Assembly (NCBI RefSeq): GCF_006345805.1
Contig: NC_043003.1
Location: 8,804,001 to 8,868,000, forward strand
DNA length: 64,000 bases
Direction of reading: 5' to 3'
Source of the DNA: Octopus sinensis
Lineage: Eukaryota
The position numbers and the translations under genes were made by a program. Below, one piece after another: positions 2,256 to 59,719 of the stretch; the first letter of the stretch is position 1, and the number at the start of each line of letters is the position of its first letter. The notes below the pieces were generated by a model, which did not search any database, was not told the origin of the DNA, and saw nothing but the letters and a program-made list of their open reading frames with translations.

Positions 2256-2939
2256 GAACTATATGTATTTGTCTGTGTTTTTGCAAAATTACTGGAAAAC
2301 GATTGAACGGATTTTCACCACATTTGGCAGAAATACGCACTGGGGGAATGGCTCGAAATGATGAACATTTGGTTTGATTATCTTTGAATAAAAAAAAAGA
2401 AAAAATCTAACTTACAAATTTCCCGATAAGCAAGTGTTCATATTTTGTTCACTTTCTTTTTCAAATGAATCGACCCTCGTCCGCGTGTGTTTAAACTATG
2501 GAGTACCTATGCGCGTAGACACATGTACGTGCATACGTACATACATATGCGACTCTGTGTGTGTGTGTGTAGGTGTGTGTACACTAATGGATTCAAGAGT
2601 TATGTTTATTTACGAGTTGGTTTCTTAATTTCACCGGAGTATAAATACCTGCAATGGTGATACTTAAAAAAAAATGAGTTCAATTAAAAATTATGGGTAA
2701 GCAACGCATTGCAATCCATACTATAATTTGCAAAAATATTTATATGTGTGCAGGGTATGGATCCTCCTCCGATGCCTTTTGTTTTTTTCATTTTAACTTG
2801 TCTATTACATATCACTCTGTAAAGAGCAGTTTATCCGAAGCCTATCCTCGGATTTACAATATAGAATTGTGATGAACCATAACTTGGGACCCGACCAAAC
2901 GATTACTTGGAGTCCTTCCCTAACCTAAGTTGTACATAT

Positions 2940-3165
2940 TTCTTTACTACCCACAATGGGCTAAACACAGGGGACAAACAAGGACAGACAAACGGATTAA
3001 GTCGATTATATCGACCCCAGTGCGTAACTGGTACTTAATTTATCGACCCAGAAAGGATGAAAGGCAAAGTCGACCCCGGCGGAATTTGAACTCAGAACGT
3101 AGCGGCAGGTGAAATACGGCTACGCATTTCGTCCGGCGCGCTAACGTTTCTGCCAGCTCGCCGCA
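2940..3165 (-). mobile_element. tRNA-derived SINE family 2 (Meta-domain-like)
   Basis: Head GCGGCGAGCTGGCAGAAACGTTAG, B box GAGTTCAAATTCC and central GACTTTGCCTTTCATCCTTTC(G)GGGTCGATAAATTAAGTACCAG, resembling the Meta/Sauria SINE domain. Confidence 0.8.
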
Positions 3166-3894
3166 TTTAACCTAAGTAATACTGTTAGCCTGGTGTGCCA
3201 ACAGAGAGCTCATGAAGTATGTTTCCCGGATTGATAATCTCTCACTATTTTTTATTTTTTTTACATATGTACATATATGAAGTGTGCGAAAAAGAGAACG
3301 GGATAGAGAGGGAAGCATGTGTTGGGGAAGAGAGAAATTTATTATAATAAATATATATTTATCTACGTTTCAAACATACACAAAATTGTCAGTGATATTC
3401 AGGATATGTCCCCCAGTATAGCAAACTAGCATATATTAAGAAAATGCGGGGTTTGCAATCGTTATCCTGTAGCAATTTCCGCTTAGCCGTTCTAATCCGC
3501 CGATGAAGGAGAAGAGAACAGCTTCTAGATATACGGAATACTGCAGTTAACCGACAAGTTGTTAAGCAAATTTGCATATTAATGTAAATTTGATTACCGT
3601 TACTAAACTAAACACTTCGAGAAAACTAAATATTTACTATATGGAATTATACTCCTTTCTACTTGTGTTGGTTTGTTGGAAACTGCGTCTGCTTTCAGCA
3701 ATGTTTTCCCCCACTAAAATGATTAGATATGCTTTTTATCTTTTTAACATGTGACTTTCGGAGGTCGAATCCACTCTGCTGAAGCGTACTTGAGTATTTT
3801 TTCCTAAAACCTCTGTGAGGTTGAAGGGCTGACTCATAGTATGTGTGAAGATTTTGGCTGACGAATAATAATGATTTTTTACAAATTTTGCCAC

Positions 3895-4276
3895 AAGGGC
3901 AGCTTGGGGAGGTGGGGATGAGGCGATTACGTCGATGCCTTTTGTTTTTTTCATTGGCATTTATTTTATCGACTTCGAAAGGATGAAAGGCAAAGTCGAC
4001 CTCGGCGGAATTTGAACTCAGAACGTAGCGGCAGACGAAATACCTATTTCTTTCCTACCCACAAGGGGCTAAACACAGAGAGGACAAACAAGGACAGACA
4101 AACAGATTAAGTCGATTATATCGACCCCAGTGCGTAATTGGTACTTAATTTAGCGACCCCGAAAAGATGAAAGGCAAAGTCGACCTCGGCGGAATTTGAA
4201 CTCAGAACGTAACGGCAGACGAAATACGGCTACGCATTTCACCCGGCGTGCTAACGTTTCTGCCAGCTTGCCGCCT
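3895..4276 (-). mobile_element. SINE family 2, tandem dimer
   Basis: A full head followed by a second headless unit, joined at ...AAAGAAATA|GGTATTTCGTCTGCC. Confidence 0.8.
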
Positions 4277-4759
4277 TTTTATTTCAAATTTTCTTTTGTC
4301 ACTAGGCAGCTTGCGAAGAGGTGGGGATGTTCAAAGTCGATCTCGGCAAAATTTGACGGAGTGCCACGGTATATATATACACTCACACGCGCACACACAA
4401 TCATATACACACATATAAACAGGTATATATGTATCTGAATGTGTTATACTCTGCTTCTTTTATATCCTGCAAATGGCAGATCGCTAGATAGACACGATAA
4501 AATACTGCGTCGATATGTTCAACTAAATCTATTAAGGTAGCTCTGCCTCAACATCGCCGCACTCGAATGAGTGAAAGCGGCAAAGAAAACTTCTCTACTC
4601 TAGGCACAAGGCTCGAAATTTTGGTGGAGGGATCCAGTCGATTAGATCGACCTCAGTACGTAACTGGTACTTAATTTATCGAGCCCGAAAGTATGAAAGG
4701 CAAAGTCGACCTCAGCGGAATTTAAAACAGTAAAAGTGTAGTCGAATATATATATATAC

Positions 4760-24505: not shown

Positions 24506-24723
24506 TACATACATACATATGTATACATACATACCAAACGTGACCAACGGCCATCTGCCTTTTTTCTTTCACTTCCTTCTTAAAGACAAAACGTGCTTTT
24601 GTCTATGTCTTCTCAAAGATCGTTTTTCCAGCGTTCAACACTTCACCTCCTTATGGCTTATCAGTCCTCACCGTTTGTTTTTACTGTTTTGTTCTTACTG
24701 TCCTGTTTTTGTTGTCATTTTAA

Positions 24724-24846
24724 CCCTCCGCAGAATATCCCGAATTTTATTTAATTTGCTTTGCGGGAAGGACTGTTATAACGAAGTCGCGTCTTGTCCC
24801 TACCTTCGAAACGCCGAGTAGATAAAACGGGACAACTGATGAAAGG
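24724..24846 (+). ncRNA. Candidate non-circularly permuted hammerhead ribozyme, copy A
   Basis: CCCT-[CCGCA..TGCGG]-GAAGG..GCG TC^TTGTCCC TA CCTTC GAAA CGC..GGGACAA CTGATGA AAGG; see findings. Confidence 0.7.
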
Positions 24847-25333
24847 AATGTACTTTATACTGCCTGTCTCGTTTCTCTATTTGTTTCTTTCGTTGTTCGA
24901 AAAAAAGTTTGTTTTCTATGTTTTTGTTTTTTATGTTCTCGTTGCTCATTTTGTTCACGTTTTCTATGTCCTGTACCTACATATGCATGTATACATACAT
25001 ATATATGTAGATATGTACATATATGTATGTATATAAACTTAGATAAACTGAGATATGTTTCGACCAAAGATTGGTCCAGGCCATGTCTAACTTAATAGCA
25101 CCACCTGATAGGATTATTTGAATCCTGCTTAAGTCAAGTTTTGTTTATGGTCCATTCAAGTAGTGAGCTTTTGTTGGGTGAGTTGTATCCAATTATGGGT
25201 GGCTTATCTGGTATTCCTTGAAGGAATCTATCCAGACTCCGTTTAAAGTTGATGGGATCCTTTTCCGCTTTGATCTCTTTCGGGACAATGTTAAATAGGG
25301 CAGGGCCTGTTGAGGAAAAGAAATTATGTTGCA

Positions 25334-30934: not shown

Positions 30935-31103
30935 TTGGAGGGAGAAAGTGGTGGTGCGTGCGTGTGTATATATATATATATATATATATAAAATACAAAA
31001 TGGGACAAGAACGCAAAACATCCAGACAGGTGATACAAAAAAGGGACAACAAAACATCCGCATAAATAATACAAAGATAAAAGAAGGGCGGGTCATTCGG
31101 GGT

Positions 31104-31226
31104 TTTCTTTCCTCAGTCGAGTTTCAGATTATCTTTGCAATTTCGGCTGGTTATACTCGAGATTACTCCAATCTGGCCAACCCCAAGGGAAAACTAAGCT
31201 AAGTGCAATAGATTCCTTGGAAGAAA
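31104..31226 (-). ncRNA. Candidate non-circularly permuted hammerhead ribozyme, copy B
   Basis: TTTCTT-[CCAAGG..CCTTGG]-GGTTGG C CAGATT GGA GTAA TC^TCGAGT ATAA CCAGCC GAAA TTGC..AATCTG AA ACTCGA CTGAGGA AAGAAA. Confidence 0.75.
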
Positions 31227-31449
31227 GCAGCGAATGTATACATAAACAAGGACGGGAAAAAAAAGGACAGTGTTACACAAATACAATAAAAATAATAACA
31301 GGACATAACAGGTGTCTTTCGACTAAGGACGAATTAAATTAAGATGGCGTGTGTGGAAGCCTTACAACAGGGCTACGTATGTATTTATGCATATACAGGT
31401 ATATGGTGGTGCTCCAGCATGACCGCAGGTGCATATCTGAAACGAATAA

Positions 31450-32000: not shown

Positions 32001-32244
32001 GCTATATGTATATATGTATATATATATGATAAATAAAATATATGCATACATACATACATATATGTACGTACCTACATCTACATGTATATATACATGCATA
32101 TATAAATATATATACGTGAGTACAGGACGCCACAAATAGACGTAGAACTCAACGAGGAACGAAAACGTAAAAACAAACAGGGAAACGGACTTTTTTTAAC
32201 AACGAAAAAAAACAGAGTACAAAACAAACTACACAAGGAAAATT

Positions 32245-32363
32245 CCCCTTCATCAGCTGTCCCTAGTTCAACTCCATGCGTGTTTCGAAGGTGAGGACAG
32301 AACACGACTCGTCGAACTAATCCTTCCTGCGAAAGAATTAAATAAAATTCCTTTGCAGAGGGG
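32245..32363 (-). ncRNA. Candidate non-circularly permuted hammerhead ribozyme, copy C
   Basis: CCCCT-[CTGC..GCAG]-GAAGG AT TAGTTCGAC GAGT CGTG TT^CTGTCCT CA CCTTC GAAA CACG CATGGA GTTGAACTA GGGACAG CTGATGA AGGGG. Confidence 0.75.
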
Positions 32364-32539
32364 TAAAAACAAGGAAAGAAAAAAAATGTGACAAAAACAG
32401 GACGTAAAAACAATACAAATAAAAAACAAATACAAAATAAGAATACAAAAACAAAAAAATACAGTACAAGAAGGAATAAAAACAGGACAGGAAACCAATG
32501 AGGGCCTTTAAGCATATATATATATATATAAATTAATGT

Positions 32540-34900: not shown

Positions 34901-35436
34901 ATAGAAGGGGAGAAAGAGAAGACAAACAAAGACAGAGACAGACAGACAGACAGACATATATTCCTAATTATAAGGCAATCAGGCATTTCTTTCAATTCCT
35001 CATCGCCATCATCGATGTTATACGTACAGCGCTTCTTGTTAAATAGTCATCGTCTCGGCTTTTCCATGTGATCTCTGAGAGCAACAACCAGCAGCAGCAG
35101 CGGTCGCAGCAGCAGCAGCAGTCACAGCAGCTGCAATTCTGTTCCTAGCAGCAACAATGCCAGCAGCAGCATCAGCACCAACTGAAGCAGCAACAATGCT
35201 GTCGATGAGAACAATAGCGGCGGCAACAATAATTTTCTTTTATCTAACATAAAAGGCCGATCCTACAAAGAAAGAGGATTTTTAGCTAATTACGTCAAAT
35301 GTAACGTATTACTGGTACCTATTTTAACGATCGCCCCCCGTGGAGATTTGAACCTGAAGCGGTCAGGCGTGAAATTTAATGTTACCCTGCTAAACACTTT
35401 CGTTTCTTTTGTCATTATGTAATAGTATAATGTAAG

Positions 35437-35849
35437 ACAGCGATCTGGCTGAAACGTTAGCGTACCTGACGAAATGTTTAGTGGTATTTCGTCTGCCGCT
35501 ACGTTTTGAGTTCAAATTCCGCCGAGGTCGACTTTGCCTTTCATCCTTTCGGGGTCGATTATATAAGTACCAGTTACGCACTGGCGTCGATGTAATCGAC
35601 TTGATCCGTTTGTCTGTCCTTGTTTGTCCTCTCTGTGTTTAGCCCCTTGTGGGTAGTAAAGAAATAGGTATTTCGTCTGCTGTTACGTTCTGAGTTCAAA
35701 TTCCGCCGAGGTCGACTTTGCCTTTCATCCTTTCGGGGTCGATAAATTAAGTACCAGTTACGCACTGGGGTCAATGTAATCGACTTAATCCGTTTGTCTG
35801 TCCTTGTTTGCCCCTCTATGTTTAGCCCCTTGTGGGCAGTAAAGAAATA
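35437..35849 (+). mobile_element. SINE family 2, head + two ~184-bp tandem units
   Basis: GGTATTTCGTCTG at 35483 and 35667. Confidence 0.85.
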
Positions 35850-40386: not shown

Positions 40387-40963
40387 CATAACATGCAAAC
40401 ACAATATACTATGAAGTATACTAAATTTCTTTTTTTTTTTTTATAAGTCAGTACCACGCAACTGGTACTTAATTTATCGATCCTGAAAGGGTGAAAGGCA
40501 AAATCGACCTCGGCGGAATTTGAACCTAGAACGTAAAGATAGACGAAAATGGGATTTATTTATTGACAGCAAGCTACATCCATGCATAGATCAGAATTGG
40601 GCCCCTAGACCTATGTGGTCTCCACCCCCGGACAACTGCCCAATGTGGCCCAGCCTTGAGACGATACTGAATTTAGCGTGTCTGCATATGTATATATGTA
40701 TTTATATACATATGTTATGCATGTATATAATGGTCTCTATCTTAAGCACAAGACCATCAGCTTTGAAGGGAGAGTGATTAATTAATATCATCGACACCAG
40801 TTCCGGTTGGATACCGTGTTTTATCAACACCGAAAAAAGTTCTGTGTTAGAAACCCCCAACGAAATTTGAACTCAGAACATAAACAGCAGGAACGAATGC
40901 TGCAAAGCTTCTTTTTTTTTTCGTACTGGTAATGTGAACCTTCTATTATTTACACTGGAAAGA

Positions 40964-41350
40964 AGGCGGCAAACTGGCAGAACCGTTAGCATTCCGGACA
41001 AAATGCTAATCGGCATTTCGTCTCTCTTTATGTTCTGAGTTCAAATTCCACCGAGGTCGATTTTGCCTTTCATCCTTTCGGGGTCGATTAAATAAGTACC
41101 AGTTACGCACTGGGGTCGATATAATCGACTTAATCCGTTTGTCTGTCCTTGTTTGTCCCCTCTGTGTTTAGCCCCTTGTGGGTAGTAAAGGAATAGGTAT
41201 TTCGTCTGCCATTATGTTCTGAGTTCAAATTTCGCCTAAGTCGACTTTGCCTTTCATCCTTTCGGGGTCGATGAAAGATCAGTCAAGTGATGGGAAGTCG
41301 ATGTAATCGAATTTCCCCTTCCCTTAAAACATTCCAGCCCGGTGCCAAAA
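40964..41350 (+). mobile_element. SINE family 2 tandem dimer
   Basis: Head at 40964; junction GAATA|GGTATTTCG at ~41195. Confidence 0.8.
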
Positions 41351-41399
41351 TTTGAAATCTTTGTTTCCATTGAAAAGTAAATTAAAGTGTTCCGTCTTA

Positions 41400-41986
41400 T
41401 TGGTTTCAAATTTTGACACAAGGCCAGCAATTTTGGGAAATGGCGGTAGTCGAGAACTGGTATTATTTTATTAACTCTAGAGCTCAACTGGTGCTTATTT
41501 TATCGACACCGGAAGGCAAAGTCGATCTCAGCGGCATTTAAACTCAGAACGTAAAGGCAAACGAAATACCTATTTTTTTACTACCCACAAGGGGCTAAAC
41601 ACAGAGAGGACAAACAAGGACTGACAAACGGATTACGTCGATTATATCGACTCTAGTGCATAACTGGTACTTATTTAATCGACTCCGAAAGATGAAAGGC
41701 AAAGTCGACCTCAGCGGAATTTGAACTCAGAACGTAGCGGCAGACGAAATACCTATTTTTTTACTACCCACAAGGGGCTAAACACAGAGAGGACAAACAA
41801 GGACAGACAAAGGGATTAAGTCGATTATATCGACCCCAGTGGGTAACTGGTACTTATTTAATCGACCCCGAAAGGATGAAAGGCAAAGTCGACCTCGGCA
41901 GAATTTGAACTCAGAACGTATCGGCAGAGGAAATACTACTAAGCATTTCACCCGGCGTGCTAACGTTTCTGCCAGCTCACCACCTC
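41400..41986 (-). mobile_element. SINE family 2 tandem trimer
   Basis: GAAATAC at ~41563, 41746 and 41930 (period 183-184). Confidence 0.85.
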
Positions 41987-48563: not shown

Positions 48564-49011
48564 TGGAGTAAAGATTGTTTGCCAACATAACATGGCAGCC
48601 TGGTTTAGGACGAATGTTGCTGTAATTTAGCCCCAGGAGATATCGTCTCCACCTGGTTTTACAACACGATCTTTGTCCTTATATTTTCGAACAAGGAAAT
48701 CTAGCACCCCCACTCAGCTCAAAACAATATCTGTGTATCGCGATTTCTGGGTTATTTCTCTTCATCAGCACAATTTCCCTTCATCAGTCGAACAATTATT
48801 CTGTGCTGATGAAGGGAAATAACCCAGAAATCGCGATACACAGATATTGTTTTGAGCTGATTGGGGGTGCTAGATTCTCTTGTTCGAAAATATAAGGACA
48901 CAGATAGTGTCGTATAGCCAGCTGGAGACGATGTCTCCTGGGGCTAAATTACAGCAACATTCGTTCTAAACCAGGTCTACCATGTTATGTTGGCAAACAA
49001 TCTTTACTCCA
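48564..49011. mobile_element. Palindromic Penelope-like element: two ~210-bp inverted arms, each with a minimal HHR
   Basis: The arms are reverse complements. HHR + at 48801-48843 (CTGTG CTGATGA AGGG AAATAA CCCA GAAA TCGCGA TA CACAG) and HHR - at 48731-48773. Confidence 0.8.
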
Positions 49012-58216: not shown

Positions 58217-58749
58217 TTTCTTTCTTTGTCTCTTTGGTCGAATTCTTGTATGAAGATATTCCCACTGGAAATAGCGATCATGACGTACAGCCACCTACCA
58301 AGTCGGATTGACAGTTTCATTTGACAACATTCTCGAAGTTATATGAATAACGCAAGTATTTATGGAATGGCTGGCTAAATGTATGTATATGTTGACATAC
58401 ACCTACATATGAGTGATATGTATTATTAGATTCCGGATGCAATTTCAAATACTGTTCAAAGGGAAAAAAAAAATTATAAAGATTTTAAACAATTTTTACA
58501 GATTTTTGCTGCATTCACCAAGTCATTGATAAAATAAATTTGGAAGTTGTAGGTCAGATTTCATTGCTTGTTTCTGAATAATACCACATTACATGTATCT
58601 ATATTGGTCGTTGTTTGTGCTATTATAAATTATTCTGAAGTCTTTCTCCTCGGAAAAGAAAAGAACTGTCATTCCGTCGGTAAGGACGACAAGGGATCTA
58701 GTTGATCCGATCAATGGAACAGCCTGCACGTGACAGAATCATTAGCTAA

Positions 58750-58953
58750 TCATAGAAGGGACAAATAAAGATAGACAAACGGATTAAGTCGATTATATCG
58801 ACGCCAGTGCGTAACTGGTATTTATTTAATCGACCCCGAAAGGAAGAAAGGCAAAGTCGATCACGGCGGAATTTGAACTCAGAACGTAACGGCAGACGAA
58901 GTACGGCTACGCATTTCGCCCGGCGTGCTAACGTTTCTGCCAGTTCGCCGCCT
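58750..58953 (-). mobile_element. SINE family 2
   Basis: Matches 2940-3165. Confidence 0.8.
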
Positions 58954-59719
58954 TAATTAAATTATACATTAGGCACTTAATTGTGTTCTGCTATGAGCGT
59001 GATCTCTCTGGTGTGTGGAAAAACTGTCTAGCATAAAACCGGTGCAAAAAAGATTAGGAGCGGTGCAAAAAAAGGCTGGGACCGGTGTTTCATACTATCA
59101 TATACGGCACCACCCAGTTCGTGTTAAATATGTATTAGTTTACTTGTCTGTGTTTCTCTTCGACAGCTCTGCAGATTTTAGAAGAATGTCATAAAGTAGC
59201 AGCTGGTTGTTTGTGAATTTCTTCTTCACTGTGTATCAAATGGAAATATCCAATGTTATTTGTTTTGTTTTCTTTTTGTTCTCCTGCCGTCTGTCGACGT
59301 TCTTTTCAAAAGACGTAATCCATTTTAATTTTAAGTTAAAATTTCCCATCGATCTCCGTTCCACCCATCTGTCGGTGAAATGTAATTGTCACACGACACC
59401 GTAGGACTTTCCATATGCAAAAAGCTAGGAACTTCAATTTGTACTTGGTGTACTTTAGCGATTTGATTGATCACGGATAAGATCGAGTCAGTTGGTTTCT
59501 TTAAATTTTTAATATCGATTTGCATCATAATCATTCTTTCGCATACTCTGTGTATGTATGTATGTATGTATGTATGTATGTACGTATGTAAGCATGCATG
59601 CATGTATGTATGTATACATTTATACATTGATGCATGTGTATGTACGTTTGTATACTAGGGTGTATGTATACATGCATGTGCGTATGCATTAAGACAGAAA
59701 GAATATAGATACATACATA

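What the first reader, a model, noticed from the sequence alone, without database searches (positions are those of the whole stretch)
31104..31226. Copy B: best experimental candidate and evidence of deep conservation of the permuted fold
All six helices pair fully (Watson-Crick/GU), the core is CUGAGGA/GAAA/AUC, and the host repeat (~30990-31370, next to (TA)n) looks unrelated in sequence to that of A/C. The fold has therefore been kept across at least two repeat families, which implies selection on structure rather than recent copying (inference).
Basis: partly seen in the sequence, partly recalled or inferred. Interest (0 to 1): 0.75.

Follow-up and report, generated by a model that had tools for sequence, protein, structure and literature searches.

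The report
Rearranged hammerhead ribozyme in Naiad-type retroelements
A mobile repeat with hundreds of intact copies in this animal genome carries all the conserved letters of a self-cutting hammerhead RNA in a rearranged order with an extra junction, and the same layout, in unrelated sequence, sits in the tails of Naiad jumping genes of three animal phyla that were reported to lack hammerheads, so it is likely their missing ribozyme, although cutting is untested.

Summary
Observation confirmed. The minus strand of 31226-31104 holds the hammerhead core (CUGAGGA, GAAA, AUC) in the non-circular S-G-C order, with six fully paired helices (36 pairs; 0 hits in 60 shuffles). It is not a plain type-SGC hammerhead (Eckert 2023): the strand after A9 cannot pair with the strand before GAAA (0 of 4), so a four-way junction takes the place of stem II. 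The conserved G-C11.1 pair comes from an upstream strand. The host is a non-coding ~765-bp unit with Penelope-like architecture, ending at (TA)n. Three unrelated repeat types in this genome share the fold (77 of 78 pairs kept; 21 of 26 positions change on both sides). One is the tail of an RT-bearing Naiad. Read by eye, 8 of 52 published Naiad 3' ends (cnidarians, a crustacean, octopods) show all six helices, and 6 nematode ones show the C-S-G permutation. Against: cleavage is untested, RNA-seq shows no end pile-up, B's autonomous partner was not found, and B's stem III is weak. Unchecked scan notes already mention permuted hammerheads in Penelope-like elements of other genomes. New variant of a known kind; interest 0.8.

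The parts
31104..31226 (-). Six-helix permuted hammerhead-like RNA, copy B (block order S-G-C; four-way junction in place of stem II)
31110..31116 (-). CUGAGGA core (C3-A9)
31141..31144 (-). GAAA core (G12-A15.1), preceded by C11.1 at 31145
31160..31163 (-). AUC triplet 31163-31161; predicted cleavage between 31161 and 31160 by analogy with hammerheads (untested)
31117..31160 (-). Stem I: 31160-31155 with 31122-31117 (6 pairs)
31137..31166 (-). Stem III: 31166-31162 with 31141-31137 (5 pairs, one GU; weak)
31145..31182 (-). Helix IIc: 31182-31177 with 31150-31145; holds the G-C11.1 pair and is the inferred stand-in for stem II
31104..31226 (-). Helix IIa: 31226-31221 with 31109-31104; starts directly after A9 and joins the motif to the rest of the transcript
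31183..31220 (-). Hairpin IIb, contiguous with IIa-5' and IIc-5'
31125..31175 (-). Interaction helix: 31175-31169 with 31131-31125 (7 pairs; an eighth pair in many family copies)
30990..31376 (-). 5'-truncated copy of the ~765-bp non-coding family-B unit (Penelope-like architecture)
30968..30989 (.). (TA)n tract at the 3' end of the insertion
32246..32362 (-). Copy C: same six-helix layout, unrelated sequence, GUU triplet; host repeat 32029-32516 (780-bp unit)
24722..24850 (+). Copy A: same layout, related to C, partly decayed

Best explanation
The motif has the hammerhead core letters in S-G-C order with six paired helices and sits near the 3' end of a non-coding, TA-adjacent repeat of Penelope-like architecture; it is likely a self-cleaving hammerhead ribozyme, predicted to cut after C31161, in an element probably mobilised by a Naiad-type reverse transcriptase. 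Shown: core letters, helices, covariation across families, repeat architecture, and the same fold downstream of RT remnants in another family of this genome. Inferred: helix IIc stacks under the G12-A9 pair and does the work of stem II, with an upstream G taking the place of G10.1. After A9 the chain leaves into helix IIa, which stacks on hairpin IIb, so that core/IIc and IIa/IIb form a perfect four-way junction. The seven-pair interaction helix ties stems I and II together as in type-SGC hammerheads. Also inferred: in a tandem transcript, two cuts would release a ~765-nt monomer. Its ends would stay paired through four helices (24 pairs in B), which would favour re-ligation into a circle. Reverse transcription primed at nicked (TA)n and running past one unit length would then give the partial tandems seen in the genome.
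For: Six helices fully paired; 0 descriptor hits in 60 shuffles. Own-family pairing 128 of 130 over five families, and 77 of 78 over B, C and the Naiad type, against 82 of 156 when strands are swapped between those three; two-sided changes at 21 of 26 positions. U16.1, a non-G at 17, C11.1 and its G partner hold in 5 of 5 families. 275 exact matches to a B-core pattern in G000 against 0 for the control. Tandem units, a fixed 3' end with an optional tail, 5' truncation and inverted neighbours match the Naiad/PLE description in PMC8557442 section 6. (TA)3 or longer follows 29 of 29 located B copies, against 35% of random window stretches. The Naiad-type fold lies within 1.5 kb of an RT match in 10 of 30 RT loci, plus one weak match; RT motif B and C residues are seen in L145 and L129. 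By eye, 8 of 52 published Naiad 3' ends have all six helices and 2 more have five. The S-G-C order cleaves in vitro in metatranscriptomic examples (PMC10085705).
Against: No cleavage assay could be run. No hammerhead with a break between A9 and G10.1 appears in what I read; Eckert et al. assume that link is unbroken, and the crystallised pseudoknot hammerhead keeps it. RNA-seq of a related organism (790-1082 reads per run, both directions alike) shows no pile-up of starts or ends. A covariance model built from A, C and E scores B at only 10.8 bits, E 1.8. No B-type motif was found beside an RT (0 of 30 loci), so the Naiad link for B rests on shared fold and architecture. In B, stem III and IIa are weak and stem I has near-zero probability in the nested ensemble. 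The helix registers were chosen by me, which favours pairing. 42 of 52 Naiad 3' ends do not show this layout in the stretch I saw. In another PLE, hammerhead cleavage needed the element's protein and was not needed for insertion in vitro (PMC11167929).
Confidence: 0.7

Rival explanations
1. The fold is real and selected, but it is a non-cleaving (or protein-dependent) RNA element that keeps hammerhead letters for packing, for example a binding site for the element's reverse transcriptase.
For: No read-end pile-up in RNA-seq. The break at A9/G10.1 has no precedent in what I read. The Anolis PLE hammerhead cleaves only with protein and is dispensable for insertion in vitro. An unchecked scan note (e1-7364151) reports hammerhead-like words without signs of cutting in a moss PLE.
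Against: The 11 core letters, the UH triplet and the G-C11.1 pair are kept while nearly all helix letters change. Other Naiads carry C-S-G hammerhead cores or twister-like motifs at the same place (by eye), which suggests that the function kept is cleavage. Frangione et al. also found no RNA-seq reads ending at a hammerhead site that does cleave in vitro.
Confidence: 0.17
2. It cleaves, but through another arrangement: two copies in a tandem transcript swap strands, or the junction slips into an ordinary type-SGC stem II, so the four-way junction is a resting state and not the active one.
For: A, C and E can form 3 of 4 pairs of a canonical stem II. PLE hammerheads are reported to cleave as dimers (PMC6765202). 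Tandem copies are common.
Against: B (0 of 4) and the Naiad type (1 of 4) cannot form that stem. All six helices close within one copy, and IIa and IIb covary.
Confidence: 0.09
3. The ribozyme reading is right, but family B is mobilised by another PLE clade that also targets (TA)n (for example Hydra), not by Naiads. This rival concerns only the partner and overlaps with the best explanation.
For: No B motif beside a Naiad-like RT in 30 loci. No significant similarity between the B unit and the Naiad-type 3' region. Hydra elements also insert into (TA)n.
Against: Hydra elements are reported to carry canonical hammerheads. The six-helix layout was seen in Naiad consensi; I did not inspect Hydra or Chlamys consensi.
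Confidence: 0.2
4. Chance pairing in a repetitive genome, amplified by copying.
For: Nested folding energy is not unusual (z -0.96); the descriptor was written from these copies.
Against: 0 hits in 60 shuffles; two-sided changes at 21 of 26 positions; the same layout in other phyla.
Confidence: 0.02

Closest known systems
Type-SGC hammerhead ribozymes / HRIMA-1 (Eckert et al. 2023, PMC10085705; text parts 3-6 of 8 read, supplement not read)
   Same: Block order S-G-C; short linker from stem I to the stem II strand (4 nt in B, 'typically three' there); an extra helix tying stems I and II; full core.
   Different: There the strand after CUGAnGA is stem II. Here it leaves into a separate helix, and two more helices (IIa, IIb) make a four-way junction; 123 nt against constructs of about 80 nt. 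The paper found type SGC only in environmental sequence and in no genome of a known organism; here it is a high-copy genomic repeat in an animal.
Naiad Penelope-like elements and their 'HHR_half_core' flags (Craig et al. 2021, PMC8557442; passages, sections 6 and 15, supplement part 1 and passages at 52 of 54 consensus ends read)
   Same: Partial tandems, inverted 5'-truncated neighbours, optional tail, (TA)n preference. The same six-helix layout lies in the 3' ends of Naiad_Obim, Ovul, Amil, Aacu, Anas, 2_Movir, 3_Chem and EuTe (by eye).
   Different: The paper concludes that Naiads lack canonical hammerheads and proposes no fold for the half cores. Family B has no ORF and no sequence similarity to the Naiad-type tail in this genome.
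Non-LTR retrozymes (preprint 10.64898/2026.07.22.740005, passages read; PMC7229834 seen as a search listing only)
   Same: Non-coding tandem units with one hammerhead-type motif per unit, held to be non-autonomous PLE derivatives.
   Different: Defined and searched by type I hammerheads only; this unit carries a non-circular permutation. Circular RNA is not shown here.
Pseudoknot (PK) hammerhead (Zhan et al. 2024, PMC11300833; parts 1-2 of 6 read)
   Same: Shows that helix II can be largely replaced by a helix made with a distant strand while the core stays active.
   Different: It keeps A9 joined to G10.1 with one G10.1-C11.1 pair and has the usual block order.

Membership tests
Hammerhead ribozyme class | CUGAnGA, GAAA and UH core letters | tested here: met
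   CUGAGGA, GAAA, AUC in B; U16.1 and non-G 17 in 5 of 5 families
Hammerhead ribozyme class | Stems I and III flank the cleavage site | tested here: met
   6 and 5 pairs in B, two-sided changes between families
Hammerhead ribozyme class | Stem II begins directly after A9 and pairs with the strand before GAAA | tested here: not met
   0 of 4 such pairs in B; C11.1 pairs with an upstream G instead
Hammerhead ribozyme class | Site-specific self-cleavage after H17 | not testable with these tools
   needs an assay; RNA-seq showed no end pile-up
Type-SGC hammerhead (Eckert 2023) | Block order S, G, C | tested here: met
   against the definition
Type-SGC hammerhead (Eckert 2023) | Short linker from stem I to stem II, and a helix joining the other sides of stems I and II | tested here: met
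   4-nt linker 31154-31151; 7-pair helix 31175-31169 / 31131-31125
Type-SGC hammerhead (Eckert 2023) | Block C unbroken (CUGAnGA followed by the stem II strand) | tested here: not met
   so it is filed as a variant that likely works like type SGC, not as a member
Penelope-like element (structure) | Head-to-tail partial tandems, 5' truncation, inverted 5'-truncated neighbour, optional 3' tail | tested here: met
   tandems in L002, L023, L082-L100; inverted pieces in L002, L087, L089, L096, L100; 3' ends near unit position 142-150 or 194-204
Penelope-like element (structure) | RT and GIY-YIG ORF | tested here: not met
   no long ORF in the ~760-bp unit of the eight longest copies translated; B is non-autonomous
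Naiad clade | N-terminal GIY-YIG, CxC and DKA motifs, C-terminal RT | tested here: inconclusive
   B has no ORF and was not found beside an RT (0 of 30). A sister fold lies downstream of RT remnants in 10 of 30 loci; the 127-aa RT piece had no Pfam RT hit; EN, CxC and DKA were not checked in G000
Naiad clade | Insertion bias for (TA)n | tested here: met
   29 of 29 located copies against 35% background; the unit carries its own short TA tract, which inflates this
Non-LTR retrozyme | Tandem non-coding units with a type I hammerhead in each | tested here: not met
   tandem units present but the motif is not type I
Non-LTR retrozyme | Accumulates as circular RNA | tested here: inconclusive
   'goes back' joints are explained by the tandem overlap in the stretch laid

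The most novel reading that the evidence does not exclude
Naiad retroelements do not lack hammerheads; many carry non-circularly permuted ones. In cnidarians, a crustacean and cephalopods this is a seventh hammerhead topology, outside the six of Eckert et al., in which the A9-G10.1 link is opened into a four-way junction; in nematodes it is the rare C-S-G type. Non-autonomous derivatives such as family B spread it to thousands of genomic sites, and because the cut ends stay paired it would act as a cleave-and-circularise device for the element's RNA.
Probability: 0.55. Interest if true: 0.88.

Novelty: new variant of a known kind. Interest (0 to 1): 0.8.

Why it matters
It offers a direct, cheap test of an open point in PLE biology: why Naiads thrive 'without' a hammerhead (PMC8557442). 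It would move non-circular hammerhead permutations from anonymous metatranscriptomes into named animal genomes at high copy number. It would also overturn the stated assumption that CUGAnGA and stem II cannot be separated. Rfam and type I descriptors miss it, so its spread is unknown. A core that accepts a two-helix insertion at A9 would be a new insertion point for ribozyme engineering.

Tried and rejected
Rfam evalue scan: the 150 listed of 213 matches were microsatellite-driven miRNA and similar hits, none a ribozyme. Nested folding: not informative for a double pseudoknot. The repeat finder: swamped by microsatellites. Hairpin-ribozyme reading: considered from recall and dropped, since the loop A/B letters are absent. 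MAFFT across B and the other families put the S block out of register, so no model including B was built and the count of structure pairs was not used; the model from A, C and E found B only at E 1.8. A B pattern with too short a gap gave 6 uninformative hits and was redone. One search had an anchoring error for the Naiad-type copy; one search is the corrected run. Six 5-kb extensions of Naiad-type copies were 5'-truncated before the RT. Pfam gave no RT hit on the 127-aa piece. Sequencing runs: no RNA holder listed on record; laying three raw RNA runs and one contig set showed no start or end pile-up and no splice joint at the GTAAGT donor. A second lay for family C did not complete. Weinberg et al. 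2015 (PMC4509812), cited for hammerhead variants with additional helices, is not held; it and the unread supplement of PMC10085705 could bear on novelty. Paper searches listed no report of this fold or of permuted hammerheads in Naiads; subscription journals are mostly not covered. Viral, metagenomic and prokaryote collections were not searched.

Full report
What is there. The minus strand of 31226-31104 carries the three conserved hammerhead blocks in the order cleavage site (AUC, 31163-31161), GAAA (31144-31141), CUGAGGA (31116-31110). Six helices of 6, 6, 6, 7, 5 and 6 pairs close around them, all Watson-Crick or GU, three of them GU. A descriptor written from these copies found A and B in the window and nothing in 60 block-wise dinucleotide shuffles, both strands. 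That version missed copy C, which a looser one found at 32362-32246. The nested folding energy is ordinary (z -0.96), and no ribozyme family is among the 150 of 213 Rfam matches listed; both are expected for a double pseudoknot that has no Rfam model.

How it differs from the known permutation. S-G-C is the non-circular order described by Eckert et al. 2023 (PMC10085705; parts 3-6 of 8 read). Their examples cleave in vitro, have a short linker between stems I and II and an extra helix tying the two; B has both. They assume that CUGAnGA and its stem II strand cannot be separated, and they report no type-SGC RNA in the genome of a known organism. In B the bases after A9 cannot pair with those before GAAA (0 of 4). 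Instead they pair with a strand 110 nt upstream (IIa), which runs directly into a hairpin (IIb) and then into the strand that pairs with the bases before GAAA (IIc). In 5 of 5 families the base before GAAA is C and its partner is G, which is the usual G10.1-C11.1 pair (named as such in PMC11300833). I infer that IIc does the work of stem II and that the A9-G10.1 link is opened into a four-way junction. The crystallised pseudoknot hammerhead shows that helix II can be largely replaced, but it keeps that link. Passages of Perreault et al. 2011 (PMC3088659) show only insertions of one or two bases in the core.

Covariation. Searches of G000 gave 1101, 2471 and 2596 first-look candidates for B, C and A, of which 40 each were scored. 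A B-core pattern has 275 exact matches against 0 for its control. Taking one natural copy for each of five families and 26 core-proximal pair positions, 128 of 130 pairs form. For the three unrelated types (B, C, Naiad type), 77 of 78 form, against 82 of 156 when strands are swapped between families; 21 of 26 positions show a two-sided change, and 17 of 26 between B and C alone. I set the helix registers by hand, which favours pairing. The B and C units share no significant sequence. A covariance model from A, C and E, which can hold only four of the six helices, placed B at full length but at E 1.8. Within family B, 25 ribozyme copies from loci found with the unit interior (L082-L100) vary at non-CpG core positions in 7 of 250 cells, against 161 of 2246 in flanks, 104 of 1675 in helices and 45 of 1000 in loops; p 0.007, 0.03 and 0.29. 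Copies are not independent, and the query overlapped the core of the upstream copies, so this is weak support. Most single copies are decaying.

The host. Family B is a ~765-bp unit with no long ORF. It occurs as head-to-tail partial tandems with variable 5' ends, 3' ends at two fixed points about 50 nt apart, and inverted 5'-truncated neighbours in L002, L087, L089, L096 and L100. (TA)3 or longer follows 29 of the 29 copies located among L001-L030, against 35% of random window stretches; the unit has a short TA tract of its own at that point. Family C is a 780-bp unit of the same build. This matches the description of Penelope-like insertions, and of Naiads in particular, in Craig et al. 2021 (PMC8557442, section 6). 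The window copy spans 30990-31376.

The Naiad link. That paper states that Naiads lack canonical hammerheads but flags eight 'half cores', with the second half 35-50 nt away; Naiad_Ovul is one. I read by eye the last 420-500 nt of 52 of the 54 Naiad consensi in its supplement (Bfor and Cmel not seen). Eight show all six helices around an intact core: 3_Chem, Amil, Aacu, Anas, 2_Movir (one unpaired base after A9), EuTe, Obim and Ovul. The three corals are near-identical, and so are the two octopods, so this is five independent cases in three phyla. Two more show five helices (Plae, cut off by the display; Esco, weak IIc). Six nematode elements show the other non-circular order, C-S-G, with an ordinary stem II. 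The remaining 36 show twister-like motifs, another unnamed motif, larger junctions that I did not parse, or nothing in view. In G000, the octopod Naiad core has 131 exact matches against 0 for the control. It lies within 1.5 kb of an RT match in 10 of 30 RT loci, plus one weak match, with RT motif B and C residues visible in L145 and L129; Pfam did not recognise the 127-aa piece. No B-type motif was found in those 30 loci, so B's partner is inferred from fold and architecture only.

Mechanism. Shown: core, helices, covariation, architecture, and the sister fold behind RT remnants. Inferred: cleavage after C31161 by the usual G12/G8 chemistry; stacking of the core on IIc and of IIa on IIb; release of unit-length RNA from tandem transcripts. 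After a cut, the two ends would remain held by IIa, IIc, the interaction helix and III (24 pairs in B), which would favour re-ligation to a circle and, with priming at nicked (TA)n, would explain the partial tandems. I put the cleaving-ribozyme reading at 0.7. Against it: no assay; no start or end pile-up in three RNA runs of a related organism (790-1082 reads each, both directions alike, about 6 in 100 of each run read). The same blank was reported for a PLE hammerhead that does cleave, though only with protein and without being needed for insertion (PMC11167929, passages).

Is B the best test copy? It is the most telling one, since A, C and E could slip into a near-canonical stem II (3 of 4 pairs) and B cannot. 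It is not the sturdiest: stem III (-0.9 kcal/mol) and IIa (-2.2) are weak, whereas C folds IIa, IIb, the interaction helix and III with P > 0.9. L017 and L027 are family-B copies with no broken pair and an intact core.

Novelty. Nine paper searches listed no report of this fold; only three papers hold 'naiad', 'ribozyme' and 'penelope' together, and the 2026 retrozyme preprint searches type I motifs only (passages). Weinberg et al. 2015, cited in PMC13725137 for variants with additional helices, could not be read, nor did I read the supplement of PMC10085705; either could hold a precedent. PMC10162972, PMC6765202 and PMC12192606 were seen as passages only. Unchecked notes of this scan mention rearranged hammerheads in Penelope-like elements and twisters in Naiads of other genomes; look-ups by words, place and sequence for this fold were empty. 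I file it as a new variant of a known kind, not as a member of type SGC, with interest 0.8.

Noticed in passing
PMC8557442 File S5, 3' ends of Naiad-1/2/3_Nbra, Hcon, Hpol, Asuum: Six nematode Naiads carry an intact hammerhead core in C-S-G order with stems I-III and a long flanking helix. Eckert et al. knew this type from two metagenomic sequences only. Read by eye.
   Followed up: partly
PMC8557442 File S5, 3' ends of Naiad_Mley, 4_Chem, 1_Movir, Mgal, Bpla, Mphi, Scon, Mmer: Twister-like motifs (label recalled, not tested) at the place where other Naiads have the permuted hammerhead.
   Followed up: no
PMC8557442 File S5, 3' ends of Naiad-1/2_Chem, CGi, Sglo, Olur, Tgra, Pmar, 1/2_Skow, 1/2_Pfla: A third conserved motif (GGCGGGUG ... 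GCUYACUC ... CACCUG) just after the stop codon in oysters, hemichordates and a hydrozoan; possibly another self-cleaving RNA.
   Followed up: no
PMC8557442 File S5, 3' ends of Naiad_Smim and Naiad-1/2/4_Dst: Hammerhead core words in S-G-C-like order with a larger multi-helix insertion at stem II; not parsed in full.
   Followed up: no
window 31185-31175 neighbourhood of family units: L002 unit position ~180 and L059 unit position ~280: Both the B and C units have a GTAAGT donor-like word just after the 3' tail, followed by a long pyrimidine tract, like the retained 5'-UTR intron of Penelope; no splice joint was seen. The window copy of B is truncated before this part.
   Followed up: partly
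window 48599-48975: Inverted repeat with 174-nt arms (93% complementary) whose centre holds CUGAUGA on both strands (48773-48820); looks like an inverted pair of another repeat with a hammerhead-type core word.
   Followed up: no
L038:298-432 (G000:C8977): A diverged subfamily (E) of the A/C type with changed stem I and interaction helix that still pair.
   Followed up: yes
L127 and L128 (G000:C1:131753251-131756654, C10:10881426-10884828): The two loci are 98% identical over 3.4 kb including flanks: a recent segmental duplication or an assembly artefact.
   Followed up: no
window 2869-4280, 35433-35814, 40948-41985, 58656-58969: Another dispersed ~300-bp repeat family in both orientations; not examined.
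   Followed up: no
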